Shown piece after piece: positions 23,440 to 53,900 of a stretch of DNA of 64,000 nucleotides (positions are counted from its first letter, which is position 1; each line of letters starts with the position of its first letter). The notes beneath the pieces were generated by a model that saw only the letters and a program-made list of their open reading frames with translations, did no database searches and was not told where the DNA came from. The stretch is from Naegleria gruberi (Eukaryota). The stretch lies in assembly GCA_000004985.1 (NCBI GenBank), contig GG738898.1; one strand, 5' to 3'. Position numbers and translations under genes: made by a program.

Positions 23440-25846
23440 TTATTCCAATTGATCAAAGAGATCATTATCACCAATCTTTTCATCCTCACTCTCTTCTTGA
23501 ATGACAGCAGCAATAACGGCTTCAGTGAGGAATTTCTTGGCTTCATCTTCTGTTACCTCACTTTCATCACATTCATCTTGAGTGATGAGGGAAATGTTAT
23601 TTTGTACAATGAAGGAACACCAGAAATCTTCTCTCTTACCCTTAGAATAGGATTGTTTGAGTTTCTTTAAGAAGTTATTGAACTGATTAGGTTCAGCTTC
23701 TCTGATACAACCTTCTCTCAATGTCTTGATACAGGCCAAGACTTTTTCATAGTATTGATCTTCAATAGAATCATTGACCAATTTAAATATGACAACTTGC
23801 ATTTCTTGAATGGCTTTATCGACCATATCCACATCCTTTCTGTTGAGCATTTCTGAGAAATCCTTTGTTGGATTTGTTGTCTTGACAGAGTTGGCTTGTT
23901 CCATAAATAAATTATTAAGACCAACACGTTGTTGTACTTCATTGAATTGAGCATCACTCATACCATCATAGGCACCATCCTTGAGACGTTTAACAACCTG
24001 TCCAACATGATCTGATTCCAGAAGGGCTGTGCCTTGTACATTTTCTGCTACTTCTTCCAAATTGTAAGAATCGAGTGTAATTTCATTTTCTCCCATAGCA
24101 AACCAATATTTTCTCTTTCCTAGTTTTGAGTCAGCTTCAACTTCCTTAGTTGGGAATAGTGATTTGAATTTAAGTCTATGTTCCTTAGTTTTTTCCATTA
24201 ATTTGTAATAGAATGATTCTGGATTCATTTCAGGATAACAAAACTTTGTAATGAGTGGTTCAACAGGAGGCAGTGGATCATTAGGTTTGAGAGCTCTCAC
24301 ATGAAGACAATCATAAAAGTGTTGTACAAGTGGATTATAAATACAGGTTGGTTTCATAGCTTCGGATTTTTCACCATTCTCATCTTCATCAGCATCCATC
24401 AAGTCCATTGATTTGATTAAATCTTCAGCTGCTTGAAGTTGTTCCTCAGAATGTTTAACTGTAGAGAAGGATTTGAATGGATACTCTCTGATATCTTCAG
24501 CAAATGGAAGTGCATTGAAATATAAACATTCAGAATTTGTACCAATGTGTGGGTACAAGAATCCAAGTTTAGGTTCAAGATCGTCTCTATATACATATGT
24601 AATAATCATGACCATTTCCAATTCAGAAAGGGCTCTGATAAATGATGATAATGCAATTTGTGCAAATGGATCATCTGGTTTGGCAATGAATGAATAGGTT
24701 TCTGCCATAAAGTGAGATCTATCTATATTCTTTTCATCTGTAAATCCCAATACAGTAATACCCTTAGATGATTTGTATTTGAGTGCCTTTTCGTTAACAA
24801 TATTGAAAGGAACAAAGTTTTTACCATACTTGTATGCTTTAACAGTCTTATCCTTTTCAATTTGATTATCTGGATCATCGTATGAATAGTAACATCTTTC
24901 CATTTGAACATCTCCATCACCACCTGTGTTGGCTCTTCTAGAAACAAGGGAGAGACGTTTAGCTGTTGGAAGAGAGGTCTTTTCGGTTTTTTTGTAAACC
25001 CAAACTGGTATCTTGATATTTCCTGCAATATCTAAATTTCCTCTAAAGGTTGTTCTTGACAAGACCTTTTTACTCTTGAATAGTAAAAGAGTATCGATGG
25101 CTTGTTGAATTGGAATTACAATACCACCAACATTTTTACACATATCACATAAGAAGATTTCATTTCTCAATTTTGGTGTCTTTCCAACAATCTTTCCATT
25201 ATCATCTTCAAGTTTAACTTCTGTATTTACAAAATCCAAACCAATAACATTAACTTTAACATCTTGATTCCTCATTCCTTGATAAATATTTTCTCTAGTG
25301 TCATTATCAACTGAAATTTCAGTTCCACCAGCATCTGAAACAATAACAATTCTCTTGGCATATTTACGTTTACCACATCTGTCCTTGATCATGTCTGTTG
25401 CAACAATAACAGCATCAAATAAATCACCTTCAGGTGACATTCCGATAGTGTCAATATTAATACTATCAACAATTTTAAAAAGATCCAATGATACCGTATC
25501 AATAGCTTGTTCAATATAAATATTTTCATATTCTCCTTCGTATTCATCATTGAGATGATTTTTAGTTTTCTTTGTACCAACAAGAACAAATCCTACTTCA
25601 TCCTTTGGACTATATCTCATCTGTTTCATTCGAATGATAAATAGATATTGATCGTGATGATGAATTTGGTGATGATAATGAATTTCCTATTATTAAATTA
25701 CTAACCTTCATTTTGATGAGAAGAGTAATGGCTCTTTTAGCCTTCTCAAATTCATCCCGCGATCTTGTTCCCAACGATTTACCAACATCAAATATAATAA
25801 CCAAGGCTTCTTTAGCTGGTGGAGGTGCAACCGAAGAAGCGCTCAT
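23440..25846 (-). CDS. ku80: Ku80 (XRCC5) homolog; complement(join(23440..25620,25706..25846))
   Basis: Exon 1 (MSASSVAPPPAKEALVIIFDVGKSLG...AITLLIKMK) is a vWA-like Ku N-terminus. An 85-bp intron (GTTAGT...AAACAG, 25621..25705) joins it to MRYSPKDEVGFVLVGT..., which is collinear with human Ku80 (VFAENKDEIALVLFGT, VLGF, conserved core). The C-terminus EDFWCSFIVQNNISLITQDE...EDEAKKFL matches the Ku80 C-terminal region. Total 2322 nt, in frame. Confidence 0.85.
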
Positions 25847-35198: not shown

Positions 35199-36192
35199 AT
35201 GGCTAATACTGTACTTGGTAGCACAACCGCTGCTAAACATGCAGTTGGTTTCAACCTTTCATTGTTGGTATGTAGATTTCACTTTGTTTATTGTCTGACA
35301 CTTGCTTGCGCACTATACTTTTGACATTTGGCGTTCAATAATTTTTCACACTCCATGCGAAAATGTTTAATATACACAAATATCTATTGCGAATTCGAAT
35401 TAACAGAAAGGTGGTACTATTACCCAAACAATTATTGGTGCAATTATTACAGCTTTGGTAATTGCTTCAACCGTTGCAACCATTATCTTGGTTTCTGTTG
35501 GTGTTGGTTACAATCCACCAGTTGCGTAAGTATTATCTAATTTATTCGAATTAATTTACGAATCTAAATTCTTTTTCACAGTGCCAATGACTTTGCTTCT
35601 ACTTATAAGAGAATGCCAGTCACTGTCGATGTACTCATAAATGATAACGATCCACGTGGTGGTAATCTTACTTTGACTCAAATTGTTAATCAACCAAAGT
35701 ATGGTACTGTCAAGATCCTTTCTCGTTCCCAAGTTGTTTATCAATCCATTGGTTCTTTCTCTGGAAATGACACTTTCAGTTATGAAGTTAGTAATTCCTT
35801 TGTTACAGCCAATGCTACTGTTACTGTTCAAGTTTTGAATAGACCTCCTCAAGCTGTTCCAATCTATAAGAAGATTTCCAAGAATGCTCATAAGGCCCTT
35901 GTCGATATTTTCAATTATGTTGGTGACAATGATGAAAGAATTAGTGATATCGATAATGATGTCTTGTATGTTACTGGCTTCGCTGATCAACAAGTTATCA
36001 GTGGTAATGCTCAAAGTTTGGGATCCATTGAAGTTGACACTTACAATGGTTTCTTGTACACTCCTGTTACTGGTTTCAATGGTATTGAAAAGTTTAATTA
36101 CACAATCTCAGATGGTAATGACACTGCTTCTTCAACTGTTACTGTTGAAGTTGAAAATGATGCTCCTATTGCCGTTGATGATTACTTTAGAA
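35199..36192 (+). CDS. signal-anchored protein with bacterial-type cadherin-like tandem repeats, partial (runs into assembly gap); join(35199..35267,35407..35525,35582..>36192)
   Basis: ATG in ttatATGG context after an A-run. Exon 1 (MANTVLGSTTAAKHAVGFNLSLL) is followed by a 139-bp intron (GTATGT...AACAG). Exon 2 is a TM helix (KGGTITQTIIGAIITALVIASTVATIILVSVGVGYNPPVA), then a 56-bp intron (GTAAGT...TCACAG). Exon 3 encodes ~95-aa repeats VDVLINDNDPRGGNLTLTQIVNQPKYGTVKI...GSFSGNDTFSYEVSNSFVTANATVTVQVLN and ...FNGIEKFNYTISDGNDTASSTVTVEVENDAPIAVDDY. Confidence 0.65.
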
Positions 36193-36558
36193 NNNNNNNN
36201 NNNNNNNNNNNNNNNNNNNNNNNNNNNNNNNNNNNNNNNNNNNNNNNNNNNNNNNNNNNNNNNNNNNNNNNNNNNNNNNNNNNNNNNNNNNNNNNNNNNN
36301 NNNNNNNNNNNNNNNNNNNNNNNNNNNNNNNNNNNNNNNNNNNNNNNNNNNNNNNNNNNNNNNNNNNNNNNNNNNNNNNNNNNNNNNNNNNNNNNNNNNN
36401 NNNNNNNNNNNNNNNNNNNNNNNNNNNNNNNNNNNNNNNNNNNNNNNNNNNNNNNNNNNNNNNNNNNNNNNNNNNNNNNNNNNNNNNNNNNNNNNNNNNN
36501 NNNNNNNNNNNNNNNNNNNNNNNNNNNNNNNNNNNNNNNNNNNNNNNNNNNNNNNNNN
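36193..36558. other. assembly gap (366 N)
   Basis: Run of n characters. A 39-bp island at 36559..36597 separates it from the next gap. Confidence 1.
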
Positions 36559-36597
36559 TCTGTAAACATGACACTTGTGTGAGTATTGACCATCCCT

Positions 36598-36802
36598 NNN
36601 NNNNNNNNNNNNNNNNNNNNNNNNNNNNNNNNNNNNNNNNNNNNNNNNNNNNNNNNNNNNNNNNNNNNNNNNNNNNNNNNNNNNNNNNNNNNNNNNNNNN
36701 NNNNNNNNNNNNNNNNNNNNNNNNNNNNNNNNNNNNNNNNNNNNNNNNNNNNNNNNNNNNNNNNNNNNNNNNNNNNNNNNNNNNNNNNNNNNNNNNNNNN
36801 NN
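36598..36802. other. assembly gap (205 N)
   Basis: Run of n characters. Confidence 1.
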
Positions 36803-37999
36803 GCGAAATTGTTGGGATGTATCCATTTTCGACAGTGGAAATGATTAGAATCCAATCTAAACCATTATCCTTAATGGTTGTCACACTAATTCTCCTACCA
36901 TCATATTGAAAAGATGAACTGTTAACTTTCAATGTCAAACTTTGAATATCATTAACTTTTTTTGAGTTATTTAATCGTAAAATATCACGTTTGTCAAGCT
37001 CGTTTGCTAATCGTTCGTTTCTACTATCTATTTCAGTCATTTGAAATCGTTTTCCATCTACTATATTCGGTTGAGAAAATGAATTCGAAACTAACATTCC
37101 ATTACGCTCAACCAAGACAATATCAATACTGTTGGTGTTCATGTCTAAGTGTCTACAGACTGTATTATTGAGTAATTGATCCATGTAGAATAGATCATAT
37201 TGCATTCCAATTATTTCTTCCACAAGAATCATTTCAGTTCCATTTTTAATAAATATTGGAAAATCCAATTTAGTAACTGCTGAAATTGATGGTGTGTTGA
37301 ACAGGTAGTGAATCCAAATATCTGTCCAAACGTATTGTGGGTATGTGTATTGATTAATATACCAAGGTCTTGTCGTGCAATCATACCCTCCTTTTTCAGT
37401 TGTCGTATTCGAAATTGGTTGAAAGTATTCGTCAAAATCAGACGATTTCAGTATGAGATCAGGTCCACTAGATTGAACTCTACTTCTATTCTTTGAAATT
37501 TCCAAACTAAACAATTGTTTTTGGCTATTTCCATAGGTTATTTCAGAGAAAGTCCTCGTAGACGAAATAATTGGTGCCAATTGACTCACCACTCGTTTAT
37601 AATTCTCAGTAAAATTCCCAATTTCATTGCCATAGATGTGTTGATGTAAAAAGAGAGAAGTTCTCAGATTGGATAAAATCTGTCTCGAAGTATGTACGAA
37701 ACCTTCCACCTCCCTTACAATATTTTCTTCTCTAATTTTGGAAGTGTTTGCAAGAGCTGTTTCTCCACTTTCCAATTTTGGATTTTGATTAAATTGTTGA
37801 AAACTAACCTCGAATAAATAATTATCAGCATGCACCCAATGCAGACGAATGTTTGTATGAGGAAAATTGAAAGGAAAATATTTTGAATGGTGTTACATTT
37901 CGAACAGGGAATTTTCCTTGGTGAAACAATTGTTTTTTCAATGTCGTCCGATTTTTCACAGGAGGACGATTCTGGTGGTGAGGTTATGCTTGTCTGCAT
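36803..37999 (-). CDS. signal-anchored protein with extracellular Cache (dCache-like) sensor domain, partial (3' end lost in gaps); complement(join(<36803..37767,37809..37999))
   Basis: ATG at 37997..37999 in a tacaaaaaaaATG context (track start 38059 is a GTG). Exon 1 is MQTSITSPPESSS... plus a TM helix (IFLSIFLIQTFVCIGCMLIIIY). A 41-bp intron (GTTAGT...GGAAAG, 37768..37808) is phase-consistent. Exon 2 encodes an extracellular domain carrying the Cache hallmark RPWY (CTTRPWYINQYTYPQYVWTDIW). The ORF runs into gap 36598..36802. Confidence 0.55.
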
Positions 38000-38524
38000 T
38001 TTTTTGTATATGTGGGGGAGGTACCGTTTGTCCTTCTGTTGTCCAAAACCATTATCCACTGTTGTCTTTCTAAATATGGAAGTATTCCATTTTGGTTACA
38101 ATCGTTCCACTACCATTTGTGAATGAAATTAATCATATAATTCGGCACAAAAGATGATATCTATCTCTTCTTGATGATATTGCTTTAGAGGAAATGTTTA
38201 GAGGTAATGAAACCCATAAACATGTTTAGTCATGTCCAAATTAAGGTCGGCAAATATCTTAATCAATGTACGTTATTTCTTTGAATTTACTTCAAGTTGA
38301 GATTGAGAATCTTGTATGTTTCCTTTAATAACCAGTTGTATCTCTCTTACTGAGGACTAATGGGGCTCATTAAATGTTTTTCCTTTCGTTATAATCACAA
38401 CATTCGATTAGTTTCCAATAGTTGTTGCATGTGATCACACATCTATGGCATCTAGACTAAATATCAGTTTGACGGACTAACCAAACCAGAAACATGATCG
38501 GCACTCAAAGTATCACTACTAAGA

Positions 38525-38994: not shown

Positions 38995-41900
38995 TTAAAT
39001 GTTGAATTCTCCTTCTAAGAATGTGTAAATAATTNNNNNNNNNNNNNNNNNNNNNNNNNNNNNNNNNNNNNNNNNNNNNNNNNNNNNNNNNNNNNNNNNN
39101 NNNNNNNNNNNNNNNNNNNNNNNNNNNNNNNNNNNNNNNNNNNNNNNNNNNNNNNNNNNNNNNNNNNNNNNNNNNNNNNNNNNNNNNNNNNNNNNNNNNN
39201 NNNNNNNNNNNNNNNNNNNNNNNNNNNNNNNNNNNNNNNNNNNNNNNNNNNNNNNNNNNNNNNNNNNNNNNNNNNNNNNNNNNNNNNNNNNNNNNNNNNN
39301 NNNNNNNNNNNNNNNNNNNNNNNNNNNNNNNNNNNNNNNNNNNNNNNNNNNNNNNNNNNNNNNNNNNNNNNNNNNNNNNNNNNNNNNNNNNNNNNNNNNN
39401 NNNNNNNNNNNNNNNNNNNNNNNNNNNNNNNNNNNNNNNNNNNNNNNNNNNNNNNNNNNNNNNNNNNNNNNNNNNNNNNNNNNNNNNNNNNNNNNNNNNN
39501 NNNNNNNNNNNNNNNNNNNNNNNNNNNNNNNNNNNNNNNNNNNNNGAGTGTGGATAGGAACAGGATTTTCATAGTGATGATGTTCCATATGTAATTCCAC
39601 ATCTGCTGATGAAATTATTGGCTTGTGATGAGAATCATCTTCCACTTGTGGAGTTTGTGGAATTTGTTCCTCTCCTTCCCATGCTCGTTTCACATTGGCA
39701 ACAAATGTTGTTGGAATACCAGTTGCTTGTTGCATAGTACCATCCACTTTGAGTGTTCTTGTTGATGATTGCTTCTCAAAGAGGTTACTAATATTGTACG
39801 TAGTGGTGGTTGTGGTGGCTGTGGTAGCTGTGGTGGCAGGTCTTTCTGAAATACAGTCTTGTGCATTCAAACTTTCCAAATTAACTTTAGAATTAATTGG
39901 TAGGATACTATTGATAGAGTATTTGAGTGATCTTGAAGTTGCTGGTGTTGATGGTTTAGTTGATGATTGACTGTAAATAGAACTAGATGGTTGAATAACA
40001 TGATGGTCAATCAAGTCTATGGAATCAACAACTTGTTGTGGAACAACCGAATTCTTCTTAATCAGGTCCAAATTCAATTCCTTGATAGAAATGACAGAAT
40101 TTGCAGTGGATGGCCTCTTGTCTTCCTCTTCAGTTGGACGAGTTGGTGTAGATGGTATTTCTTGATCGGGATTATATTCCTTTCTAGGAATGTAAAAATT
40201 TCCTTCAATATCTTCATGACTTGGAACAGCAATTTCACTTTCGTCACCATAATGTTTCTTTGAAGGAAGCTTAATCTTTTGTGGTTTGAGGTCATCATGA
40301 GTAACATAGGACAAGTGACGAAGAAGTTTTGGAATAGGACGTGGTCGAATAGGTCTGACCGGTCCAGAACCTTCCTTTGGGTTGGTGGAACCATGCTTAT
40401 TCTTTGAATTCTTGGTATTTCTCTTTCTCATAAAGAAACATACAAGGAAAAGCAACAAGAACATGCAGGACAATCCACATACTATGGCTGCTGAAAACAC
40501 AGCTGCTGCAACGTACATGTACGAGTAGTGAGAAACTGTGGCAGTCTGGATGACAAAGACATTGGTAAAGTGAGAACATTTACAATAGGCATGTGTATCA
40601 TTCTTCAGTTGGAGGGAACATGAGTAGGTAACTTCAGTAGTTCCATCTAAAAAGTCTGCACATGCATAACTGTCTGTTTCCTCTGTAAAATCGAATGAAC
40701 TTGCTGTACTAGATGTAAGAGTACTTGTAGTATTGATGGGAATAATGTAAATGAGGCCATCTTCCTTCATAGGAACACTCAAGTCCGTGAATTCAACCGA
40801 GACAATTGGAGAAATAAGACTTGACGTTCTAGTTGTCGAGGCAGAAAGTTTTTGTGAAAGTTTTAGCTTTCTATCAAGAGAAAACACATCATCTGTTACT
40901 GTCATTACGTACGTGAATGGTTTTTTAACAAGTGATGATACCTTATTTTCAAAAACAAAGAAATTGTCTGGAATTAGAACAGAAGTAGATCTTTCAGAGT
41001 CAGTAATGATATTCTCATAATCATAAATGGTACTTTTACCCATAATCATGGAGAAGAATGGTCCTTTGGTTCTAGTAATAGTACGAGAAATGTACATGTC
41101 TCTGGTTTGAAGATTTGACGACATTTTGAGTGCGGATAATAATTTTCTAGAATTGGAAGTTTGGTCAGTAATGTACTGTCTTTCCATAATGTAGTCATGG
41201 ACAGATTCAACACAAGCATTCAATAGGTTTTGCACACCTGGAGATAATTTGATTTTTCCAGAATCTTGGGCAGTTGTTAAAAACCTATTCAGGGTGCATA
41301 ATGCCTCTGAAATTGTCTTGGAATTGAGGAAATGATAATTAACAAGGATTGAATCAACAGCAAATGAGAGTAGAGAAATGTAATCCTCATTCAAACCATC
41401 AGTCTTATTCATACTTGTAGTAATATCATTTAGGACAGTTAATTTGCTCTTTTGGATGTTAGAAAAATCTCTAATGGAGGTTTCACAATGAGTACCAATA
41501 TATCCATCAGCACACTTGCATTCGCCTGAAACTTCTACACCACTTATACATTGAAGATACTTGGTTGATCTTTCATTTATGGAACGCTTAAATGATAAAT
41601 CTCCAAGGGTTTCTTTCAATAGAACCGAATCTGTTCTAGAAGTAGAGGCAGATTGATAGATGCTCTTACTGAAATGACCTTCGGACATGTAGGTTGCACT
41701 CACCCCTGACCAAGTCGATACAATTTCTTGAACTTGTTCAATGTCTGTTACTGTTGGTTTGGAAATTGTAATATTCTTCTCCATAAGAGTTGTACCGCCT
41801 GTGACAGTATTGATAATTTCAAAGAAACAAGTCACTGTATCACCATAGAATGGTGCAGGTAGTTTGGAGGCAAACACTTCACCAAGGTTGTACAGATAAA

Positions 41901-44900
41901 TCTTGGATCCTGATCTATCATCCAAAAAGCCATACTTAAAGTCAATATTTTCATCTGGATTTTTACAATTGGTACAATAGAAATCAAATTCAGTTTCAAG
42001 TGCAATACCTGTTGATGGATTAATGGAGCAATCACATGGTTTTGGAATGGAAGCCATTGAGAATGCATACGCTGTTCTCACAGTAACACCAGAAGAAGTA
42101 TCTCTTGCTGCAATAGTAAGAGTATTGGTTGAACCCTGCACAAGCAAGGTTGTATCTATGACTCCTGTCACCATTTCTGCAGCACCAACTTGCTGTACTA
42201 TGAATTTAGACTTGTCAAGAATCATTCCATTGAGAACCCATGTGGTTTCTGTGGAGGAAGTTATTTCTGATGAGATTAAAGTTTGAACGGAAAGTTTTTG
42301 CCCAGGAATCAAGTATTGAGTAGTAGGATTAATATCAAGGATATTCACCACAGGTGGAATATTATTAAAGTAAACAATGGTGGACTTTTCCACAATTCTG
42401 TCAGTTTTGGAGACTCTTAATCGAAGTTGAAGTGATGAAGGAACAATCATGCTTCCAAACAGGGCTGAATCAATGGTGAATAGCTTGGCTTTTGTGCTTG
42501 AAATGGATCGAAGCAAACTGAGCAAATCAGGATTGCCACTATCTAAGCAACTCCATGTCCATGTTTCCACTGATTCATAATTGATGGCATCCTCTGGATC
42601 ACTGTATTCCACTTTAATGACTGTATATGTCTTTCTGGATTCTAATTGAACAAGATTTAGATAGAGGTCTGGAGATTTTGTTGTCAATGTCACAGTAGAG
42701 GTTGAGGAGAGTGTTGGATTTGAAGCATAGTAAGCTTTCACTGTGAATGAGTAGCTCACACTTCCAAAAGTTCTCAATCTAGAAATGTACAAATTGTTAA
42801 ACTTGTCTACAGTGAATTCTATGGCAGGCCCTGATGTTTGAGCCCAATCAATTGTAACAGATTCTGATGCACATGTTGACTGAGTAACAACCTTCTTGAT
42901 TGAAGAAGGAAAATCTGTTGTGAGCTTTTCAACCAAGGATGGAGCCATCACTAAAGGAAGAGGTTTCTCAGACTTGACAAATTCCCTCGAATATACATAA
43001 GGACTAATAGTATTCAATGAAGGGCTATGGACCTGAAGCATCATTCTATATCTTCCAGCTGGAAGTGATGCTTCCAACTTGATAATAGCTTGATTGGGAT
43101 AACTATTAGATACAATTTCAAAGGTAGTTGCATCGAGTAAGGACCAATAATAGCTCAATTGCTTTCCATCATTGGAGTGGCTCAGAGTGCCATCTACACT
43201 AATTTCATCACACGAACTAAACATGTCTATATTGGCCATACTAATGAAGGCAGTTGGGGTGTTATTCTGTAAGGGCATGACAACTGGAATGGAAATATAT
43301 TCCTCTCTGGTTGTTAAGTTATTGTATCTATCGTAGACGAGTGTATTCAATTTGATTGATTGACCACTTTCTAATGTATAATCAATTGAACCAAAAGTGA
43401 TCATGAAAGCATAGCTTGCCTTATTCAAATATTTACATTTCACATTAGAGAAGGAACCATAAACATTTCTGGACCTATCTTCTGAACTGATAAGATTCGA
43501 GCACGGAATTTCCACACCAGTAAATGCTGTTGGGAGGTTGAGTTTAAATACTAATCCAGAAAAATCGGAAAGAATAGTGGCAGGTCCTTCAATCTTGGTT
43601 GCACAATTAATTCCATAATAGCCATTCAAACAAGTGTCACATAAGGAGCCATTCCAGAATCCACGTTCAAAACTTGAATAACATTTGCAAGTCAAATCAG
43701 ATTTACATTCTCCATTATTGAAACAATTATTTGCACAAGTACTATTTACAACAGTTGTTGGAGTACTGCTTGAATTATTGCTAGTATTGCTAGTTGCATT
43801 GTTTGAAATCGGTGGAACTATAACCTCGTTACTTGTGTTGTTTGTTGGAGTGGTTGAGTTTTCATTGGGAATGGTAATGTTTGGATGTAATTGTTCTGAA
43901 CAATTAAATCCCAAGTATCCATCCTTACATTTACAAGTGTCAAAATCAGTACACTGACCATTACCAGAACATACTAACTCAGATGTGGATTTAACAGAAA
44001 AGCAAGTTGTGAAATTACAGTTTGGTCCAAAATATGGCAAGTTACAGTCACAATGATTGAAAGATTCACACCTACCACGGGATTGACAAACAAGGGATTC
44101 ATTACTCAATACACCAAAACAACTTGTCACAGAGCAATCACTTCCAAAGCTATTTGGTTCACATTCACAAGTGTCCAAGTCTGAACAAACTCCTCTTTGA
44201 GAACAAACAGTCATATCTAACTTGGATTTACCGTAGCAATAAAAGTGAGAGCAATCTGGGCCAGAGTATCCTTTGTTGCAGACGCACGTATCATGACTTG
44301 TACAACTACCACGGCCAGTACACGTCTCAGAGCTATTGGACGATTTTGAAAAACATGTAGTCAACTCGCAATTCATTCCAAAATAGTTTTCAGCACATTC
44401 ACATTGGTCGAACTCAACACATTTTCCTCTGGAATTACACACAGAAGAGGAATTTGATGGAATATTGTGGCATAGAGGAATTTCACAATTAGATCCAGTA
44501 TATGAAGAATTGCAAGAGCAATGATTTAAGGTGGAACAATTTCCTCTTGAATTGCATACATTTGGATCATGAGAAGAAATTCCAAAACATGTAGTGTACT
44601 GACACCAAGGTCCTGCATACTCTGATGGACAATGGCACTCATCAACCTTTGAGCAATTTCCAACAGAATTACATACTTTGGAAGAGTTTGAGGCAATTCC
44701 AAAACATGTAGCCAACTCGCAATTTCTTCCTGTATACTTTTCATTACATGTACAATTATCTGGTGAATGGCAAGGGCCGTGATAGCTACAAACTGAAGAA
44801 TTACTATCCTTAATACCAAAGCATAGAGAACCAAAGCAATTATCACCATAAGAGCCGTGGTTACAAATACATGTATTCGAATCGGTGCATGAACCATGTC

Positions 44901-47900
44901 CAGAGCAAACACTGGATTGGTTATTCATTACACCAAAGCACTTGTAATTTTCACAATTGGATCCATAATAACCTGATTTACATTCACACAGATTGTAATC
45001 TTTACAAGAACCATGCGCAGAGCAAACATAAGAATCATTAGAAGCAATACCTGCACAATAGCTCTTTTCACAGTTGGTTCCAAAGTAGTGAGCTGAACAA
45101 GAACACTTATCGGCAGAGATACATTGGCCATGAGAGGAACAAACTGAGGAAACATTACTTAAAACTCCATTACATTGTGTTACTTCACAATGCTTGCCAA
45201 AATAATCCTTTAAACATGAGCAAGTCTCAATGTCAATACAAGTGCCCCTTCCTGAACAAACTTTAGTATCGGTACTGAGTGTACCATTGCATTTGAATAG
45301 TTCACATTTGCTTCCTGAGTAACCACTCTTACATGTACAGTTATTGAAATTAGAACAGGTACCATGAGAAGAACAAACTGAAGAGCTATTAGAAAGAGTT
45401 CCATAACATGAAGAAACCTGACAAGTTGAACCATAGTAATTTGCTGAGCAGATACAATTATTGAATGAGCTGCAATAACCATGTGAGTTACAAACACTTG
45501 GAGATGTTGAAAGTTGAGAGCCGCAGGTTGTAATCTCACATCTAGACCCCGAGTAATGATCTTGACACGTGCAAGTGTTTGGGGATGTACAATTTCCATG
45601 TGAGCTACACACAAGAGATGAATTGCCTGTTGTACCATTACATATTGGAATTTCACACCTACTTCCCAATGAATTTGATGAACAAGCACATGTATCAGTA
45701 TCTACACATGTTCCATAACCAGTGCACACTTTTGGAGATGTATTCTTGATGCCAAAACAATAGTGTTCTGAACAATTTTGCCCAAAGTTACCTTGAAGAC
45801 AAGAGCAATTATTAAACTCTCCACAAATTCCCTTTCCAGAACAAACAGAGCTAATGTTTGATAGGAATGAATAGCAAGAAGTAATTTCACATTGACTTCC
45901 CATGTAATTATTCAAACATGAGCATGTATTGAATCCAACACATGTTCCCCTTGATGAACAGACAGATGTATCATTACCAAGTTTTCCGTAACATTTAGAG
46001 ATGGAACAATTATTTCCGTAATAATTATTGGAACAAACACAAGTGTCAATATCCACACATGTTCCTCTTCCAGAGCAAGTCTTGTTCGAATAGTAAGGAA
46101 TGTCGTAGCACTTGTAATCAGAACATGTGCTGCCATAGTAGGTGTGATTACATTGACAATTATTGTAACTAATGCAGGAACCTCTTCCAGAGCATACATA
46201 CTTGCTGTTAGAGAAAACTCCAGAACAAGTAGTCAATTCACACCATTGTCCCAAATAGCCAGTTTTACAAAAACAAGTATCAGGTGCTATGCAACTACCA
46301 TGCGAATTACATACAGTGGTATCATTGGAAAGTGTTCCATTACATTGAACCACACTGCAATCCATTCCAGAATAGCCAATATTACATTTGCAAGTATCAG
46401 GACTAGTGCATGATCCTTGACCACTACAGACAAAGGTAGAATTGGATGAAGAAATTCCATAGCAACTTGTCTCCTCACAATACTCTCCAAAATATCCACT
46501 ATTGCATTCACAAACTTCGTTGGCAATGCATGAACCCCTTCCTGAACAAACAAAAGATTCATTATTACTTAGCATGCCATTGCAAATGTAGAGCGAACAA
46601 TCTGTTCCATAAGCTCCATAATTACACTTACAGCTGTTGTAGTCGATGCATTGTCCATTTCCAGAACATGTACTATTGTCATTGGAGTTGATACCATAGC
46701 ATTTTGTAAAGTTACAGCTGTTGCTTAAATATGGCTCAAATGGATCGAAACTCTTTGGTGGTTCAAATATGACACTCTCTAAAATAACATACGAGTTGAG
46801 AGCCCATATAGATCCAGCAACTGTTCCATGCACGTATAGATAGTCATCCTTGGTGGCTGATATAACAGTACCAGCTATTGGTTTTGTGGAAGAACCCCAC
46901 ACTTGTGATGAAGATCCAACCACCCAGTATAAATTTCTATGTGAGGCACAATTTAAAAAGGTAATACTTGAATTTGCATAATAGAGTGACGGAACCTTAA
47001 TTACTACTGGCTCTGTTCCAATAATAACAATATTTTGAGTTGGTTTTACAAACCAATTTGTTAAAAAACAAAGAACAGCTCCATTTCTAATGATTAGAGT
47101 TGAAGAGACATTGGTTGAGGTTAAGTATTGTGTACATGCCATATTTTGAATGAGATCAATTGATTTTGTCATTTCATCAACAAGCATCTGGCCAATTGGC
47201 TCAGAGGTCAAAACAATTGAAGCATTCTTATTTGGCAAGTACGGGAAGTATGAATATTCTTGTAATTCTAAAACCATACTAGCTGTCAATAACTGATACT
47301 CTCTTCCTATTGAGGAAATGACATGTTTTGAGCAGATCACTTTGTAACCGGCGAATATATCAGTCTTGAGTTTTTCGCAATTTTCACCTCCAAATCTATT
47401 TCCACATTGGCAAGAATTGAAATCAACACATTTTCCATTTCCAGAGCAAACATTGCTATCATTGGATGGGATACCGTGACATGAATTAATTTCACAGAAA
47501 GGACCATCATAATTAAGAAAACATTTGCAAATGTTGTAGTCTGTACAAGTACCATGTGAGCTACAAACTGAGGAAACATTTCCAAGAGTTCCATTACATG
47601 TTGTAATAGAACAATTTAAACCTAATCTGTTAGCTCCACATTGACATGTGTCTGGACTTGTGCATGAGCCATGGCCAGAGCACACTGAACTATTAAAATT
47701 ACTCACTCCAAAACAGTCATAATTGGAGCAATGGTTTCCATAGTATTTGTCTGAGCAGGTGCAATTTTCAAAAGAAGAACATTTTCCATGAGTAGAGCAA
47801 ACCAAAGAATCATTTGAAAAGATGTTTCCACATTTTGTTATATCACACTCCTGTCCATAGTAATGTTCTTCACAAGAACAATTGTTAAATGGCCAACAGA

Positions 47901-50900
47901 TTCCTCTTCTGTGGCATACCTCACTGTGATTGGAGAGAATTCCAAAACACAATGTCATTTGACAGAATTCTCCAAAATAATTTGAGGAACAATTGCACAT
48001 ATCATTAGCTGTACACGATCCATAACCATTGCAAACATTAGTGTCATTACTAAAAGTTCCATTACATTTAGAAATTTCACACTCATATCCAATGTAATGC
48101 TCAAAACAAGAACATGAATCTTTTTGAGAACAATTTCCTCTTCCACTACAAACAAAACTATTATTCATATTACTCACACCAAAGCATTCGAAATATTCAC
48201 ATTCAGAACCCGAATATCCAGGTTGGCAAGAACAATTATTGAAATCATTGCACTGCCCAAATCCCTTACAAACGAGTGAGGAGTTTTGTTGAATACCAAA
48301 GCAGGTTACAAACTCACAATATTTTCCGTAATACCCTTCTTTGCATTGGCATGTTTCTGGTGCAATGCAAGTTCCTCTTTCTCCATGACATTCTCCTATC
48401 GTACCATTACAAAGAGGTATTTCACACTCTGATCCTCCGTAGCCCAAAGTTGAATTGCAAGAACAGTTATTGGATGATATGCATTTACCTCGTTCATTAC
48501 AAACAAGTGGAGAGCTGTATGAATAATTTCCACACACATAGTCAGGCGCAATTTCCAAAATCGTAGTATTGGTACTGTTTGAAGGTTCTGAAATATTAAC
48601 CGAAAATGAACAATTCCCACACAAAGTTTGATTCCAATAAGTTTCATTGAGGGGATTGCTATTATTCGAAACTGTAATGTTTTGCTGCGTATTGGTACTG
48701 TTCATAGTAATGGTTTCATTTGAGAATAGAGTGGAAGAATTTAAAGTATAGTTTTCTGAGGGTGTACTATTGAAACCTAAAGTAGTACTATTGGTTTCCA
48801 CACATGATGAACAATTAGCTGTTGTATTGGAAGAAATACTCTCATTATAGATTGTAGAGTTGGATATTTCTAATGTGCTACTACTGGTTTGATTGTTAGA
48901 GATTTGATTATCAGAATTGTCTTCATGTTTGGTTTGATTGTTAGAATGGCTGGTTTGATTTTCACTTGAGGAGGAAAAATTCGATAGAATATTTGTGGAA
49001 TTATTTGTGAGAGTTTCATTCAAGGTTTGGTTGAATGTTTGAGAATTATCTTCCAATTCTCTTCCAAATTTGTGCGCTGAGTTGTTCAAAGTGCAATTAC
49101 TTCCCACTGGACAGTTTTCTAAAGCTGTCGCATTTTCCAGCAGAGAGCTAGTTGTCTCATTGAGTGATGAGGTATTAAGAGTGGTGGAGTTCTGAGAGAA
49201 TACAGTTCCATTCACTGTGTTATTTGACTGGAAAGAAGTGTTCCACGAAGCAATTTCACTACTGGAATTAGTTGTGCTCTCAAAAGTAGTGTTGAACGTG
49301 AACGTATGATTCGACAGAATTCCAGTGCTGTTCTCCAGACCTGTTTGATTGAAAATAATTGATGAGTTCATGCTGTTATTACAATCGGGAGATGTTACAT
49401 TGAGAGAGGTATTGATCCAAATCGTGCTGTTTCCTCCTTCATACGTATCAGAACTGTTGTAATGTTGAAGGATTGTTCCATTTGAGGTACTAGCATTATA
49501 ATTTTCACTGCTTGTAGTATTTTCCCAAACGGATGAATTGGAAAAGATAGTCGATTCGTTAGAGTAGGAAGTGAAATTCGATTGTGTGCCATTCCCCATG
49601 AACCATTCAGTTGAATTAGTAACAGATGTACTGTTCTTGTCTAAGGTTTCATTTGTACCATAAAGACAAGTATCACATGTGATGTTCAACACTGTGTAAT
49701 TGGAAAAGTTTGAAGAGTTACTAGTCAAACTCTGATTGGTGGCCAATTCGGTGTTGTTAAGACGAACATTTGAAAAATTTCCTGTAGAATTGCTTCCTAC
49801 TTCTAAGGAATTGTTGGTTACATTATTTGTACTGGTAGAATTATCAGAAATGGTGGTATTAGTATTAGTTCCAGTAGAATTATCCGAATCAGTTCCGTTT
49901 GTTTGACCAACAAAGTTAGTTCCATTATTTGATTCAGTAGTATTACTTGAAGAGGTGCCATTTGATGGAGTATTATTAATAGTTGAATTAGTGTTTGTTT
50001 CATTAGTATAAATAGTTCCATTATCCAATTCAGTAGAATTAGAAGAGAAAGGAATGGTTTCATTGAACGAAGTATGTTCGTTTGTAAGATTGTGATTTGT
50101 TATATTACTTTTGGTATTTTCTAACTTGGTTTGATTTACCATATTTGTAGCATTGAGCTGTGTATTGTTTGCTAAATTCGATGAACTATTAAGGGACAAG
50201 CTATTTGTCTCATTTGAAAGGATTGTGGAATTTATGACAGTTTGATTTTCTCCTTGAAATATTTCAGTTACTGTCCCATTATTGAATGGAGAGGTACTAT
50301 TCTCATAACTTTGGTTGTAAAAGCTTTGATTAGTGACAACGGAATAGTTTACAGTGGTGTGATTAAAGTCGTGAGTTATGTTGCCATGTACTACACTACT
50401 GTTGCTCACTGAATTATTCTCAGCCCTTTCAGTTATATTTAACACTGTAGAATTTCCTTCAGATTCACTAACTTTTCCTTTTGTTGGTATTGAATCATTA
50501 AGATTTTCACTGCCATTCTTTGAAATAGGATTACTTGAATTTGTAAGTTCCGTATTGTTTTCTGCTATTAAAGAAGTATTAGAAATACTGTGGTTTGTTT
50601 TTTCATGGTTTGTATTATTCAAAATGGTGCCATTAATTGTTTCATTCAAAGATATAATAGAGCTGTTACTACTTGTAAAGTTATGCATTTCTGTATCATT
50701 AAGCTGAGATCTGGTAATATTATTATAAATAGACTCATTAACAAATGATATCTGTGTTGCATTAAGAGATACAGAATTGTTAGACAATAGAGTATTATTC
50801 TCTTCGGAGTATCTCGTAAAGTTAGCATGGGTTTGATTAAGATTAGTACTATTTATCAGTGTGGAATTATTTTCATTCACTGTTCTATTCAATTCAGAAT

Positions 50901-53900
50901 GGTTATGTGGAGGTGTTTCAGTGCTGTTTTCTACAACTTTGTTTGAACTATTGCTGAATGTTGAATTCCACTGGTCAGTGACATTGAACGAAGTATTTGA
51001 AAGTGGATTTGTTGAATTGAGTAGACTTGAATTTGATACAGTACTTTGGTTGCCAAGGGAGGAGCTGTTCCCAAAGGTTTCTGTTCTGTTTACAAATTCG
51101 TTTGTGTTGTTATCCAAAGAGTTTGATCCTGTTATGTTACAGTTTGTATTATTTAAAGCAGCTGTAGTATTACTATTCTCTGTTGCATTAGCAAATCCGA
51201 AAGTGCCATTAGATAAGGAATTGTTGAAAGTTGCAGTATAACCCAAGTTTAGGGAATTGTTTGAATTTGTATTGGTGATGTTTCCTAATTGTGTACTTTC
51301 TGTGTAATTTAAATCATTCGTAGAATTAGAAGAAGTGAAATTCTGATTTGTACTGTTATTGGTATGTTCATTACTTGTATGGTTTGTTGTTGTGTTATTT
51401 TCCACCAATGAATTATTTAGTGCTGTAGTGTGATTTTGAACAAAAGTCTCATTGTTCAAGGTTTGTGTGTTATTTACACCAAATAAAGTCTCATTATTCC
51501 CTGATTTTCCTTCCAAAGTTTGATTCCTGGTTTCGTTTAAAAAACTTGAATTAGTGATAGCAGTATTATTTTCCAATACTGAAGATTGATTGTGTAACTT
51601 TGTGTTATTCTCAAATAGAGTGGTATTAATTGTCTGAGAATCGTCGATCATAGACGTTGCGTTAGTGTTAATTGTGAGATTCTCATTATTAACTGTAGAG
51701 TTTGTTTCAATACTGGGTACAGATGAGCTATTCTGATTCTCAGTTTGGTTGTACCTACTATGAAGAGACTCGTTCCCTATCATTGTTTTGTTTTCATTTA
51801 TCAGGGTGTCATTATTTACAAGAATTGTAGAACTAATAGATCCATTGAGGTACGTATCATTGAGTTGAAAGGTAGATTCATTAAGGAAGTTTAGACTTGA
51901 ATTCAAATTTGTATAGTTCACAGATATTGAAAGTGTTTGATTTTGTGATTTGATATTGACAAAAATGGAACTGTCATTCCTCAGAGTTTCGTTCAATGTT
52001 ACATTACCAACTGTGGTGACTTTGGTAGAATTTTCTGAAGAATTTCCATTCAAGAAACCGGTTTGGTTACTTATTGCCGTTCCATTTTCGGCAGGCATTG
52101 TTTGCTTTTCGAAAGTTGTAGTGTTGTTTTCAGCAAAACTATTATTTTCGGGCCTTGTGGTATTTTGAGTGGAAACTGTAATAGACATATTGCTAGAAAT
52201 TTCTCTGGTGATGTTGGAGTTTGTCATATTAGGATTAGTATTTGCCAAGTTATTAACCACTGAGCCGTTTTCCTGCAACGTTTGATTTCTTGTTTCCAAG
52301 CTGTCATCAGATCTAGATGTCGAGTTACTAGCAATACTGGTATTTGTTATTGAAATAGTTGTGACATTACTTTGTTCAGTGTTGTTCCAATTGGTTGAGT
52401 TCATTGTTTTGTTGCTTTCAAGGTTTTCTAGTGTTAAGTTCTTTGAAGACGTTTCATTAAGAAAAACGGTTTTGTTTGTAATAGTATCTTGTGAAGAATT
52501 ACCTCCGTTAGTATTATTGCTAGTGGTGATATTGAAAGATTCTGTGCGATTGATAAATAAATCAGAAGTGTTGTTTAGCACAAGCAATGAACTGTTAAGG
52601 TTAGTGGAGTTCTCAAGTGTTATGGTTGAATTGATTGAGATTGTTGAATCATCCAAAACAAACTGGTTTGTATTATTCAAATCTGTTGAATTACTTGTTT
52701 CATTCACCAATAATACGGAGGTATTAGAATAGCTATTGGAGAGTGTGTTATTCTCAATAGCATCAGTTGTATTTAAGCCTGTTGAATTCACAATTGATAA
52801 ACCTGATTCGTTAGAATGGTTTGAATAGTTATCAAACTTTGAGCTGTTGCTCCCGGTTAATGAAAAGTTGGCTACATCATTAAAAGTTGAATTATTAACA
52901 AGACCATGTGATTGACCCGAGGGACCGCTAATTGTTTGGTTTTCTGGGAAATGACTAGTGTTGAGCCTTGTTGTATAATTTGAATCAAGAGTGTTATTAG
53001 AAATAATGTCTGAACTAGCATTATTGGAAATTCTTGTACTATTCCCAGTGGTCATGGTACAGTTATTTGAATCATTAGAAGTAATATTTGAAACAGTACT
53101 ATTTGAAATTGTTGAATTGTTCACTGTTTCATTTCCTTGCTTAGTAGCTATGGTTGCATTCAAATCAACAGAGGAGTTGGATGGAACACTTGGAATATTA
53201 GATTCGTTTGAAAAATTTGTAATATTATCAAACCTAGAGCTGTTTCTCCCATTCAAAGTTGAGTTTGTAAGGTTATTAAATGTTGAATTCTCGAATGTCG
53301 ATAGGTTACTCCCACTCAGTGACGAGTTGGTAACATCTTTTAAGGTTGAATTATTAACTGAAGTAATGTTGGTTTCATTCTCAATACCAAATGATTGATT
53401 TGAGGGACTACCACTATTTGATAATGTTTGGTTTTCGGAGCTATAACTCGTGTTCACACTAGTTGCATTTTTTGAATCAACAGTGTTATTATTAGTCATG
53501 TTTGAACTAGTATTAGATAGTATTGTATTGTTAAAAGTTTCATTTCCTTTTTGTATAACAGTTGAATTCAATTCTAAAGTAGTATAGTATATACTTGTAT
53601 CATTTTGTTCAATAGATGAATTATTTGATAAGACGGTCTCATTTAGAATAACAGATCGATTATTCCAAGTACTGTCACTTGCATTTGTTTCATTTAGTGT
53701 GACAGTTACGTTATATGTCAGACTTGTATTGAAACTGGTCTCATTCTTAATTTGTCCATAAGAATTGTTCATTGAGGATGTTTCATTTGGATGAATTAAA
53801 GTCTCATTAACATTTACATCTGATTGGTTTGATGCTGTGTAAGTACTATTCCTTCCTGGACCAGTAGAGTTATTGAAAGTCGTCTCGTTGTTAGATGTTG

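What the first reader, a model, noticed from the sequence alone, without database searches (positions are those of the whole stretch)
35199..36192. Gene with introns and an N-terminal signal anchor that encodes bacterial-type cadherin-like (VCBS/RTX-adhesin-style) repeats
After a TM helix the protein consists of ~95-aa units with the bacterial cadherin-like consensus (vLiNDnDp.Gg.Ltl...v..P.yGtv.i...g.v.Y.p..gfsG.DtFsY.vsdg..tanatVtV.V.N) and the inter-repeat motif NDAPIAVDDY. These domains are typical of bacterial surface adhesins. Here they sit in a gene with two spliceosomal introns, suggesting an old horizontal acquisition domesticated as a surface adhesin.
Basis: partly seen in the sequence, partly recalled or inferred. 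Interest (0 to 1): 0.65.

Follow-up and report, generated by a model that had tools for sequence, protein, structure and literature searches.

The report
Bacterial-type adhesin repeats in Naegleria gene
This is the front end of a real, intron-containing Naegleria gruberi gene for a membrane-anchored surface protein built from repeat domains otherwise found almost only in bacterial adhesins; it looks like an old bacterial gift, and the assembly gap hides about nine tenths of it.

Summary
Window 35199-36192 is the 5' part of Naegleria gruberi gene NAEGRDRAFT_72622 (XP_002672350.1). It has three exons, two canonical GT..AG introns, a 31-residue N-terminal tail and a 26-residue membrane helix. Two complete repeats (90 and 106 aa) follow, then the start of a third, which runs open into the N gap. 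The repeats pass the Pfam cut-offs for Big_9, Cadherin_4 and Cadherin_5. They do not match classical cadherin, VCBS or RTX models. AlphaFold2 gives two beta-sandwiches (pLDDT 95).

Outside the genus, every named relative I found is bacterial, at about 29-46% identity. The family has about 32,600 cluster representatives. Inside the genus there are at least three paralogue groups. The full-length N. fowleri orthologue (FDP41_006209) has 2,312 aa: the same anchor, about 20 repeats, a VWA domain and a Cys-rich tail.

The nine Naegleria-family sequences compared form one clade (100/100 NJ bootstraps). Composition is host-like, and some intron positions are shared between species. This fits one old bacterial acquisition, re-anchored by a eukaryotic signal anchor. 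The transfer is inferred, not proven, and the adhesin function is untested.

The last exon of the public gene model (37908-38126) is an artefact of bridging the gap. Verdict: new member of a known kind, moderate interest.

The parts
35199..35267 (+). Exon 1: MANTVLGSTTAAKHAVGFNLSLL. It encodes most of the short cytosolic N-terminal tail, which is conserved in all Naegleria paralogues.
   Evidence: the start position agrees with orthologues (MPEQITLGSTT.., MQENVIKGSST..)
35268..35406 (+). Intron 1 (139 nt, GTATGT...AACAG, phase 0). An intron sits at the same position in metagenomic relative L001. It is absent in L002 and N. lovaniensis.
35407..35525 (+). Exon 2: end of the tail, the membrane helix and the first residues of repeat 1 (KGGTITQT-IIGAIITALVIASTVATIILVSVGVG-YNPPVA).
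35431..35508 (+). Single membrane-spanning helix (aa 32-57, 26 residues). It reads as a signal anchor (type II topology inferred), not a cleavable signal peptide.
   Evidence: hydropathy 2.56; helix conserved across three paralogue groups
35526..35581 (+). Intron 2 (56 nt, GTAAGT...CACAG, phase 2, 20% GC). It was not found at this position in the other species examined.
35582..36192 (+). Exon 3. It is open to the last base before the gap, so the true exon continues into the gap.
   Evidence: orthologues continue ..NNAPTAVDDNFKVPKY..
35512..35837 (+). Repeat 1 (aa 59-148, interrupted by intron 2). It begins directly after the helix with the linker motif NPPVAAND. It carries VLINDNDPRGGNLT in place of the bacterial consensus VLxNDxDPDGDxLT.
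35838..36155 (+). Repeat 2 (aa 149-254, 106 aa), more divergent. It matches the C-terminal part of Cadherin_5.
36156..36192 (+). Start of repeat 3 (NDAPIAVDDYFR), cut by the gap.
36193..36802 (.). Two N runs (366 and 205 nt) around a 39-nt island. They hide the 3' ends of this gene and of the convergent minus-strand gene. By comparison with the 2,312-aa N. fowleri orthologue, about 2,050 codons are missing, so the gap length must be understated.
37908..38126 (+). Terminal exon of the public model XP_002672350.1 (GIFLGETIV...TTICE*). It is joined from a fortuitous GT at 36174 and is judged spurious. It has no counterpart in any orthologue and lies antisense to the 5' part of the neighbouring gene.

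Best explanation
The region is the 5' end of a bona fide Naegleria gruberi gene (NAEGRDRAFT_72622). It belongs to a Naegleria-wide family of single-pass type II membrane proteins.

Shown:
- A 31-aa N-terminal tail and one membrane helix are followed immediately by tandem beta-sandwich repeats of the bacterial tandem-95 / Big_9 / RapA2-type cadherin-like family.
- Full-length relatives carry about 6-30 such repeats. Groups A and B end in a VWA domain plus a Cys-rich region. The VWA has an intact DxSxS and TDG metal-site signature. No VWA end was seen in the group C sequences retrieved.

Inferred mechanism:
- The helix acts as a signal anchor, leaving the N-terminus in the cytosol.
- The repeats, stiffened by Ca2+ at the ND.D.DGD-type linker sites kept in most repeats, form a long stalk. 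At 4-4.5 nm per domain this would be roughly 80-90 nm for the ~20-repeat orthologue.
- The stalk holds the distal VWA domain away from the plasma membrane to bind substrate, prey or host ligands. This is the geometry of a bacterial fibrillar adhesin, with a eukaryotic membrane anchor replacing the bacterial outer-membrane retention module and type I secretion signal.

Inferred origin: one transfer of a bacterial repeat (possibly repeat + VWA) gene into an ancestor of the sampled Naegleria species. Anchor addition, intron gain and loss, compositional amelioration and duplication into at least three paralogue groups followed.

In this assembly only the anchor and 2.1 repeats are present. The rest lies in the gap.
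For: Gene structure and identity. Splice junctions are validated by the uninterrupted orthologous ORF in L002.

Domain family: Pfam Big_9 89 bits, Cadherin_4 60 bits and Cadherin_5 58 bits, all above cut-off. NCBIfam tandem-95 scores 79 bits.

Fold: AF2 pLDDT 95.1, two 7-strand sandwiches. Foldseek matches bacterial GH107 accessory domains, phage collar Ig-like domains and cadherin EC tandems.

Bacterial affinity: in two indexed searches all non-Naegleria named hits are bacterial, at 26-39% identity. The exhaustive phmmer search found 32,617 representatives. The named top hits are Mycolicibacterium, Desulfobacteraceae and Thermodesulfobacteriota, and unnamed ones sit on contigs of 4.7-7.8 Mb. 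The GTDB genome scan hit Burkholderiaceae, Gammaproteobacteria, Eubacteriaceae, Pirellulaceae, Eudoraea and Paraglaciecola.

Residency in the eukaryote: introns are present. GC is 36% and GC3 25%, like the neighbouring Ku80-like gene. The flanking genes are Ku80-like, DOCK-like and EGF-rich eukaryotic genes on a 310-kb scaffold.

Family and architecture: N. lovaniensis C9374_005925, N. fowleri FDP41_006209 (2,312 aa; 14 Big_9 stretches; VWA at 2032-2141), and paralogues FDP41_012619, FDP41_012608, C9374_011070, FDP41_003925 and C9374_007811. Metagenomic relatives L001, L002 and L019 carry introns and a VWA end.

Single origin: the Naegleria family splits from the 40 best bacterial segments in 100/100 NJ bootstraps, and group A in 95/100.

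Functional precedent: RapA2 CHDL domains are Ca2+-dependent lectins (PMC5061743). Big_9 repeats serve as extenders in Ca2+-dependent bacterial adhesins (PMC12153261).
Against: - No experiment or transcript data were available, so expression, surface location, Ca2+ binding and adhesion are all untested.
- Horizontal transfer is argued from distribution. I could not survey all eukaryotes. The search for homologous proteins appears to return only hits up to about 1.75 times the query length, and the exhaustive library carries no names. A short repeat domain gives weak phylogenetic signal.
- Vermamoeba, an unrelated amoeba, is reported to express a gene that best matches a bacterial tandem-95 protein (PMC7125106). 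The domain may therefore be less rare in eukaryotes than my hit lists suggest.
- Repeat 1 has lost two acidic positions of the putative Ca2+ motif (DPRGGNLT).
- N-glycosylation sequons are not enriched.
- For N. gruberi itself the distal part, including the VWA domain, is not in the assembly. No other N. gruberi protein carrying it appeared.
Confidence: 0.7

Rival explanations
1. The domain was inherited vertically. Tandem-95 / Big_9 repeats would be an ancient family present in early eukaryotes and kept in Heterolobosea, or exchanged among eukaryotes. The bacterial look would simply reflect the overwhelming number of bacterial sequences in the databases.
For: Best-hit lists are biased by database composition. 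More than 32,000 bacterial-type representatives swamp anything rare. Another amoeba, Vermamoeba, has a tandem-95 gene (PMC7125106). The indexed searches had an apparent length filter. Some intron positions are shared between species, showing long residency.
Against: No non-Naegleria eukaryote-labelled protein appears among the 120 best hits of either informative search, although the database includes EukProt, UniRef and nr. The Naegleria sequences are one tight clade. Their nearest outside relatives, at 35-46% identity, are bacterial wherever a name exists. Pfam and NCBIfam curate these models as bacterial families.
Confidence: 0.12
2. The repeats themselves are the business end. Like RapA2 of Rhizobium, they would act as Ca2+-dependent lectins for acidic bacterial exopolysaccharides. 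The protein would then be a prey or biofilm capture receptor for phagocytosis, not a stalk carrying a distal adhesive domain.
For: Cadherin_4 (the RapA2-type model) is matched above its cut-off. UniProt names the N. lovaniensis orthologue 'RapA2 cadherin-like domain-containing protein'. RapA2 is a Ca2+-dependent lectin for exopolysaccharide (PMC5061743). Naegleria feeds on bacteria (general knowledge).
Against: The match is at domain-family level only (about 30% identity), and sugar specificity is not predictable from it. Groups A and B keep a distal VWA domain with an intact metal site, which suggests that the tip is the ligand-binding module. In most large bacterial proteins these repeats serve as extenders (PMC12153261).
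Confidence: 0.2
3. The N. gruberi copy is a truncated remnant or pseudogene. Only the anchor and a few repeats survive, and the stated gap of about 610 nt is roughly right.
For: The N runs total only 571 nt. No other part of the gene is found elsewhere in the window. No further N. gruberi protein of this family appeared in the searches. There is no synteny with the N. lovaniensis locus.
Against: The frame is open for all 266 codons up to the gap. Identity to the N. lovaniensis orthologue is 65-69%, with the tail and helix almost unchanged. Codon use is host-like. The convergent neighbouring gene also loses its 3' end in the same gap, where its membrane segment and output domain would be expected. 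The gap therefore cannot be as short as written. Long arrays of similar repeats are a classic cause of Sanger assembly failure (general knowledge).
Confidence: 0.12
4. Bacterial contamination or a chimeric assembly: the repeat-coding stretch is bacterial DNA wrongly joined to an amoeba scaffold.
For: The domain family is bacterial, and the locus abuts assembly gaps.
Against: There are two spliceosomal introns with canonical ends. GC is 36% and GC3 25%, like neighbouring amoeba genes. The N-terminal exons are contiguous with upstream amoeba sequence. Orthologues occur in independently sequenced N. lovaniensis and N. fowleri genomes, and in intron-bearing metagenomic contigs next to eukaryote-like genes.
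Confidence: 0.01

Closest known systems
Bacterial tandem-95 repeat / Big_9 (PF17963) proteins, including large Ca2+-dependent biofilm adhesins such as BapP of Pseudoalteromonas tunicata
   Same: The repeat family is the same (scores above Pfam cut-offs). The period is about 90-106 aa and the linker motif is N-x-x-P-x-A-x-D-D. The ND.D.DGD-type acidic motif is kept in many repeats of the orthologues. The repeats form long tandem arrays, sometimes combined with VWA domains.
   Different: The host is a eukaryote and the gene has introns. The protein is anchored by an N-terminal membrane helix instead of a Sec signal, beta-propeller, retention module or T1SS signal. No RTX nonapeptide repeats are present. 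Repeat 1 has a family-specific DPRGGNLT variant.
RapA2 CHDL (cadherin-like) lectin of Rhizobium leguminosarum (Pfam Cadherin_4, PF17803)
   Same: The domain family matches at 59.6 bits against a cut-off of 25.1, and the predicted fold is a cadherin-like beta-sandwich. RapA2 is Ca2+-dependent and extracellular (PMC5061743).
   Different: RapA2 is a small secreted two-domain lectin exported by a type I system. The Naegleria proteins are membrane-anchored, have about 6-30 repeats and end in a VWA domain in groups A and B. Glycan binding is untested here.
RTX / fibrillar adhesins of Gram-negative bacteria (LapA, MpIBP type)
   Same: The overall design is the same: an N-terminal anchor at the cell surface, a long extender of tandem beta-sandwich repeats, and ligand-binding domain(s) such as VWA near the C-terminal far end.
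   Different: No retention module, no RTX repeats and no T1SS signal are present. Export must use the eukaryotic ER/Sec61 route through a signal anchor. This is an analogy of design, not membership.
Classical eukaryotic cadherins (PF00028)
   Same: They share the beta-sandwich fold class, and tandem EC domains are among the Foldseek matches. Ca2+ at inter-domain linkers is the likely shared principle (inference).
   Different: There is no match to PF00028 at E <= 1. The topology is opposite (N-terminal instead of C-terminal anchor). There is no catenin-binding tail.
Tandem-95 repeat gene of the amoeba Vermamoeba vermiformis reported as bacterial-like and highly expressed (PMC7125106)
   Same: It is a free-living amoeba with an expressed gene whose best match is a bacterial tandem-95 repeat protein, interpreted as gene trafficking.
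   Different: It belongs to a different supergroup (Amoebozoa versus Heterolobosea). I did not compare the sequences, so the relationship to the Naegleria family is unknown.

Membership tests
Pfam Big_9 (PF17963) / Cadherin_4 (PF17803) / Cadherin_5 (PF17892) domain families | Profile HMM score above the curated gathering cut-off | tested here: met
   Big_9 89.1 bits (cut-off 23.6), Cadherin_4 59.6 (25.1), Cadherin_5 58.2 (26.5)
Pfam Big_9 (PF17963) / Cadherin_4 (PF17803) / Cadherin_5 (PF17892) domain families | Beta-sandwich (Ig/cadherin-like) fold for each repeat | tested here: met
   AF2 model pLDDT 95.1 with two sandwiches of 7 strands. Foldseek matches Ig-like and cadherin tandems at E down to 3e-9.
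NCBIfam tandem-95 repeat protein (NF012211) | Whole-protein score at or above the curated cut-off of 90 bits | tested here: not met
   The score is 79.1 bits with only 2.1 repeats present, so the shortfall is expected for a truncated protein. Two paralogues of the window gene (group C: N. lovaniensis C9374_007811 and N. fowleri FDP41_003925) are named 'Tandem-95 repeat protein' by UniProt.
NCBIfam tandem-95 repeat protein (NF012211) | Head-to-tail repeats of about 95 residues | tested here: met
   The repeats are 90 and 106 aa, with a third starting. The N. fowleri orthologue has 14 Big_9 stretches.
Ca2+-dependent CHDL lectins (RapA2 type) | Ca2+ binding and specific recognition of acidic exopolysaccharide | not testable with these tools
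   Only motif-level resemblance is available. Repeat 1 lacks two acidic positions of the consensus.
Bacterial RTX / T1SS fibrillar adhesins | C-terminal RTX nonapeptide repeats and a T1SS signal | tested here: not met
   No HemolysinCabind hit in the window protein at E <= 1, nor in the full-length relatives P0384, P0125, P0121 and the L003 ORF at E <= 0.01.
Bacterial RTX / T1SS fibrillar adhesins | N-terminal retention module plugging an outer-membrane pore | tested here: not met
   The N-terminus is a 31-aa tail plus one hydrophobic helix, followed directly by repeat 1.
Bacterial RTX / T1SS fibrillar adhesins | Long repeat extender with a distal ligand-binding domain | tested here: inconclusive
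   This is met in orthologues and paralogues (VWA at 2032-2141 of FDP41_006209). The corresponding part of the window gene lies in the gap.
Classical cadherins (PF00028) | Match to the cadherin EC profile, a C-terminal membrane anchor and a cytoplasmic catenin-binding tail | tested here: not met
   PF00028 is absent from the hit list at E <= 1. The anchor is N-terminal.
Bacterium-to-eukaryote horizontally transferred gene | Stable integration in the eukaryotic genome (introns, host-like composition, eukaryotic neighbours, presence in sister species) | tested here: met
Bacterium-to-eukaryote horizontally transferred gene | Closest relatives outside the recipient lineage are bacterial | tested here: met
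Bacterium-to-eukaryote horizontally transferred gene | A well-supported tree nesting the eukaryotic clade inside bacterial diversity, with absence from other eukaryotes | tested here: inconclusive
   Only monophyly of the Naegleria family against the 40 best bacterial segments was shown (100/100 NJ). There was no rooted placement, no donor and no eukaryote-wide survey. Vermamoeba has a tandem-95 gene.

The most novel reading that the evidence does not exclude
Naegleria has taken a whole bacterial fibrillar-adhesin design (repeat stalk plus VWA tip) and re-engineered it for the eukaryotic secretory pathway. A conserved type II signal anchor would replace the bacterial secretion and retention parts. 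The resulting multigene family would be the amoeba's main long-reach, Ca2+/metal-dependent adhesion or prey-capture system. In N. fowleri it could be the molecular basis of the so far antibody-defined 'integrin-like' binding to host matrix, and so a virulence and vaccine candidate.
Probability: 0.2. Interest if true: 0.65.

Novelty: new member of a known kind. Interest (0 to 1): 0.4.

Why it matters
Naegleria has no well-defined adhesion molecules. Adhesion of N. fowleri to host matrix is ascribed to 'integrin-like' proteins known mainly from antibody cross-reaction (background cited in PMC9928731).

This locus points to a genus-wide, unstudied family of very large surface proteins. They are built from bacterial adhesin repeats, and most members carry a VWA tip. 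That gives concrete candidates for substrate, prey or host binding. It is also a clean example of how a bacterial surface protein can be refitted with a eukaryotic membrane anchor and introns.

Two practical corrections follow:
- The public model XP_002672350.1 has a spurious last exon.
- Two adjacent N. lovaniensis models (C9374_005925 and the next gene) are probably one gene split by assembly frameshifts.

None of the gene identifiers appears in the searchable literature.

Tried and rejected
1. Searched the rest of the window for more of the gene with tblastn, using the 827-aa L002 orthologue. Nothing was found beyond 35407-36191. The 39-nt island in the gap matches nothing recognisable.

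2. Tried to close the gap with near-identical DNA from metagenomes. The scan gave only bacterial-like loci at 29-34% identity. The viral contig scan found nothing.

3. Looked for synteny with the N. lovaniensis locus. None was found within +/-10 kb.

4. A single-sequence search of PDB sequences gave only chance SH3 hits at E > 0.1.

5. Tested N-glycosylation sequon enrichment as a sign of adaptation to eukaryotic secretion. There are 5 observed against 3.1 expected in the window protein. The long Naegleria relatives fall below expectation and below the bacterial homologues. I dropped this line.

6. The third indexed protein search used the VWA-containing C-terminus of the N. lovaniensis ORF. 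It returned one hit because the tool seems to return only proteins up to about 1.75 times the query length. The origin of the VWA part therefore stays unresolved.

7. The search for related loci with alignment A1 on bacterial genomes failed for lack of conserved columns. The single-protein scan gave six scattered bacterial phyla and no donor.

8. A first bootstrap script timed out. It was redone with a faster distance routine.

9. Literature searches for the locus tags and for Naegleria with cadherin-like, adhesin or von Willebrand terms found no description of this family.
Full report
**What is in the sequence**

The window is about 33% GC, has several N runs and carries obviously eukaryotic genes.

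At the stated coordinates an ATG at 35199 opens a 69-nt exon. A 139-nt intron (GTATGT..CAG) follows, then a 119-nt exon and a 56-nt intron (GTAAGT..CAG). The third exon is still open at 36192, the last base before a 366-nt N run.

The spliced product is 266 aa. It is 100% identical to the public protein XP_002672350.1 / NAEGRDRAFT_72622 of Naegleria gruberi as far as ..NDAPIA. A metagenomic orthologue (L002) reads straight through both junction sites in one ORF. This independently supports the splice sites.

The protein has four parts:
- A 31-aa tail.
- A 26-residue hydrophobic helix, aa 32-57, with a Kyte-Doolittle 19-residue maximum of 2.56.
- With no spacer, a 90-aa repeat and then a 106-aa repeat.
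- The first 12 residues of a third repeat.

**Is it the claimed domain?**

Yes. Three Pfam models are all well above their cut-offs:

| Model | E-value | Bits |
|---|---|---|
| Big_9 | 3.7e-25 | 89 |
| Cadherin_4 (RapA2-type) | 4.4e-16 | 60 |
| Cadherin_5 | 7.5e-16 | 58 |

The NCBIfam tandem-95 model gives 79 bits against a whole-protein cut-off of 90, as expected for a truncated protein. Classical cadherin, VCBS and RTX models do not match.

An AlphaFold2 model of exon 3, built on a 68-sequence alignment, has pLDDT 95.1 and shows two seven-stranded beta-sandwiches. Foldseek finds Ig-like accessory domains of a bacterial GH107 enzyme, phage collar proteins and cadherin EC tandems.

That test does not refute the claim.

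**Relatives**

Two indexed searches returned only bacterial names among the non-Naegleria hits, at 26-39% identity.

An exhaustive phmmer search of 1.84 billion representatives found 32,617 proteins at E <= 1e-3. The best are giants of 2,000-7,900 aa with up to 46 matched stretches. Those that carry names are Mycolicibacterium, Desulfobacteraceae and Thermodesulfobacteriota. A scan of GTDB species genomes hit six scattered bacterial lineages at 29-34% identity. No donor can be named.

Within Naegleria the family is sizeable, with at least three paralogue groups:
- **Group A** contains the window gene and N. lovaniensis C9374_005925 (69% identical over the 266 aa). It also contains N. fowleri FDP41_006209 and the metagenomic contigs L001 and L002.
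- **Group B** is about 1,175 aa: FDP41_012619, FDP41_012608 and C9374_011070.
- **Group C** is 2,482-3,547 aa: C9374_007811 and FDP41_003925.

All groups share the tail and helix almost unchanged.

FDP41_006209 is a complete 2,312-aa protein. It has the anchor, 14 Big_9 stretches (about 20 repeat units), a VWA domain at 2032-2141 and a Cys-rich end. The VWA reads DSSGS...TDG in FDP41_006209 and DASGS...TDG in other members, matching DxSxS.

It runs continuously across the point where N. lovaniensis C9374_005925 stops and the next annotated gene begins (Big_9 x6 + VWA). The two N. lovaniensis models are therefore most likely one gene broken by frameshifts. A second frameshift was skipped by a false 32-nt 'intron'.

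Contig L019 comes from the same metagenome as L001. It carries the repeat-VWA end with its own GTAAGT..TAG intron.

**Origin**

The gene is resident, not contaminant:
- It has introns.
- GC is 36% and GC3 25%, like the neighbouring Ku80-like gene.
- It sits on a 310-kb scaffold.

In an NJ analysis of the first two repeats, nine Naegleria-family sequences separate from the 40 best bacterial segments in 100/100 bootstraps. Group A separates in 95/100.

Intron positions differ between species:
- N. gruberi has two introns, at SLL|KGG and PPVA|AND.
- N. lovaniensis has four, at other sites.
- L001 has four.
- L002 has none in the 827 aa on the contig.

The SLL|KGG site is shared by N. gruberi and L001. 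The QTI|VG site is shared by N. lovaniensis and L001.

Together this indicates one acquisition before the divergence of the sampled species, followed by duplication and intron turnover.

It remains an inference. I could not survey all eukaryotes, and the indexed search seems to limit hit length. The exhaustive library has no names. An unrelated amoeba, Vermamoeba, is reported to express a bacterial-like tandem-95 gene (PMC7125106).

**Mechanism (inferred)**

The helix starts 31 residues in, is 26 residues long and is conserved across paralogues. It is therefore a signal anchor, not a cleaved signal peptide. This gives N-in/C-out topology.

The ectodomain starts at once with the inter-repeat linker motif. 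Most repeats in the orthologues keep the ND.D.DGD-type acidic motif of the bacterial consensus. Repeat 1 has a family-specific DPRGGNLT variant.

By analogy with cadherins and with bacterial Ca2+-dependent adhesins that use Big_9 extenders (PMC12153261), and with the Ca2+-dependent CHDL lectin RapA2 (PMC5061743), the repeats probably form a Ca2+-stiffened stalk. That stalk would present the VWA tip. A lectin role of the repeats themselves is the main functional rival.

**State of the locus**

By comparison with the 2,312-aa orthologue, about 2,050 codons are missing.

The convergent minus-strand gene (36803-38059, with a weak dCache_1 match at E 0.009) also loses its 3' end in the same gap. 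The two N runs (571 nt in total) must therefore understate the real distance.

The public model bridges the gap from a fortuitous GT at 36174 to an AG at 37906-37907. It adds 72 residues (GIFLGE...TTICE) that no orthologue has and that lie antisense to the neighbour's first exon. That exon is an artefact.

**Novelty**

The proteins are in public databases with automatic names ('predicted protein', 'RapA2 cadherin-like domain-containing protein', 'VWFA domain-containing protein', 'Tandem-95 repeat protein').

No paper in the searchable library mentions the locus tags or describes the family. The Naegleria pangenome paper counts VWA genes but never mentions cadherin-like repeats.

Bacterial-type surface domains in protists acquired by transfer are a known phenomenon. 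I therefore rate this as a new member of a known kind, of moderate interest. The interest lies mainly in providing candidate adhesins for Naegleria, including the pathogen N. fowleri.

Noticed in passing
window 38995-54945 (-): A single uninterrupted ORF of 5,316 codons, with an N run at 39035-39545 inside it. Its C-terminal part carries many teneurin-type EGF repeats (EGF_2, EGF_TEN, EGF_Teneurin). The first ~2,200 residues have no Pfam match. It is a second giant, probably extracellular protein gene, 2.8 kb from the finding.
   Followed up: partly
window 36803-38059 (-): A convergent neighbouring gene. A likely first exon has a hydrophobic segment (ORF 37715-38059). A 344-aa region follows with a weak dCache_1 match (E 0.009, below cut-off). 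Its 3' end is lost in the same gap as the cadherin-like gene.
   Followed up: partly
window 36174-38126 (+): The public model XP_002672350.1 joins ..NDAPIA (GT at 36174) to an exon at 37908-38126, across both N runs and over the opposite-strand gene. The added 72 residues have no counterpart in any orthologue. This is a likely annotation artefact.
   Followed up: yes
L003 10001-17403 (N. lovaniensis PYSW02000025.1): The models C9374_005925 (1,070 aa) and the adjacent 1,184-aa gene are most likely one gene of about 2,250 aa. It is split by frameshifts near L003:11430-11460 and near L003:13700. The N. fowleri orthologue FDP41_006209 is continuous across the matching points.
   Followed up: partly
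window 35268-35406 and 35526-35581; L001 2342-2591 and 3198-3229; L003 10035-10859: Intron positions in this one gene differ strongly between congeners (2, 4, 4 and 0 introns in the 5' region). Only two positions are shared pairwise. This suggests brisk intron gain or loss in Naegleria.
   Followed up: partly
L002 about 785-795: The intron-free metagenomic orthologue has a 1-nt insertion that shifts the frame (..GSVN*/KVISRS..). A 722-codon open frame follows. This is probably an assembly error, not a pseudogene.
   Followed up: no
protein aa 1-57 (window 35199-35508): The short cytosolic tail (..S-S/T-T...G-x-N-x-S-L-L/I-K..) and the membrane helix are conserved across all three paralogue groups, more strongly than the repeats. 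This hints at a sorting signal or a partner within the membrane.
   Followed up: no
window 23440-25629 (-) and 58268-62146 (-): These are ordinary eukaryotic neighbours: a Ku80-like protein (Ku, Ku_PK_bind) and a DOCK-family protein (DHR-2). They confirm the chromosomal context.
   Followed up: yes
window 36559-36597: A 39-nt island of real sequence lies between the two N runs. It matches nothing in the orthologues or in the rest of the window.
   Followed up: partly
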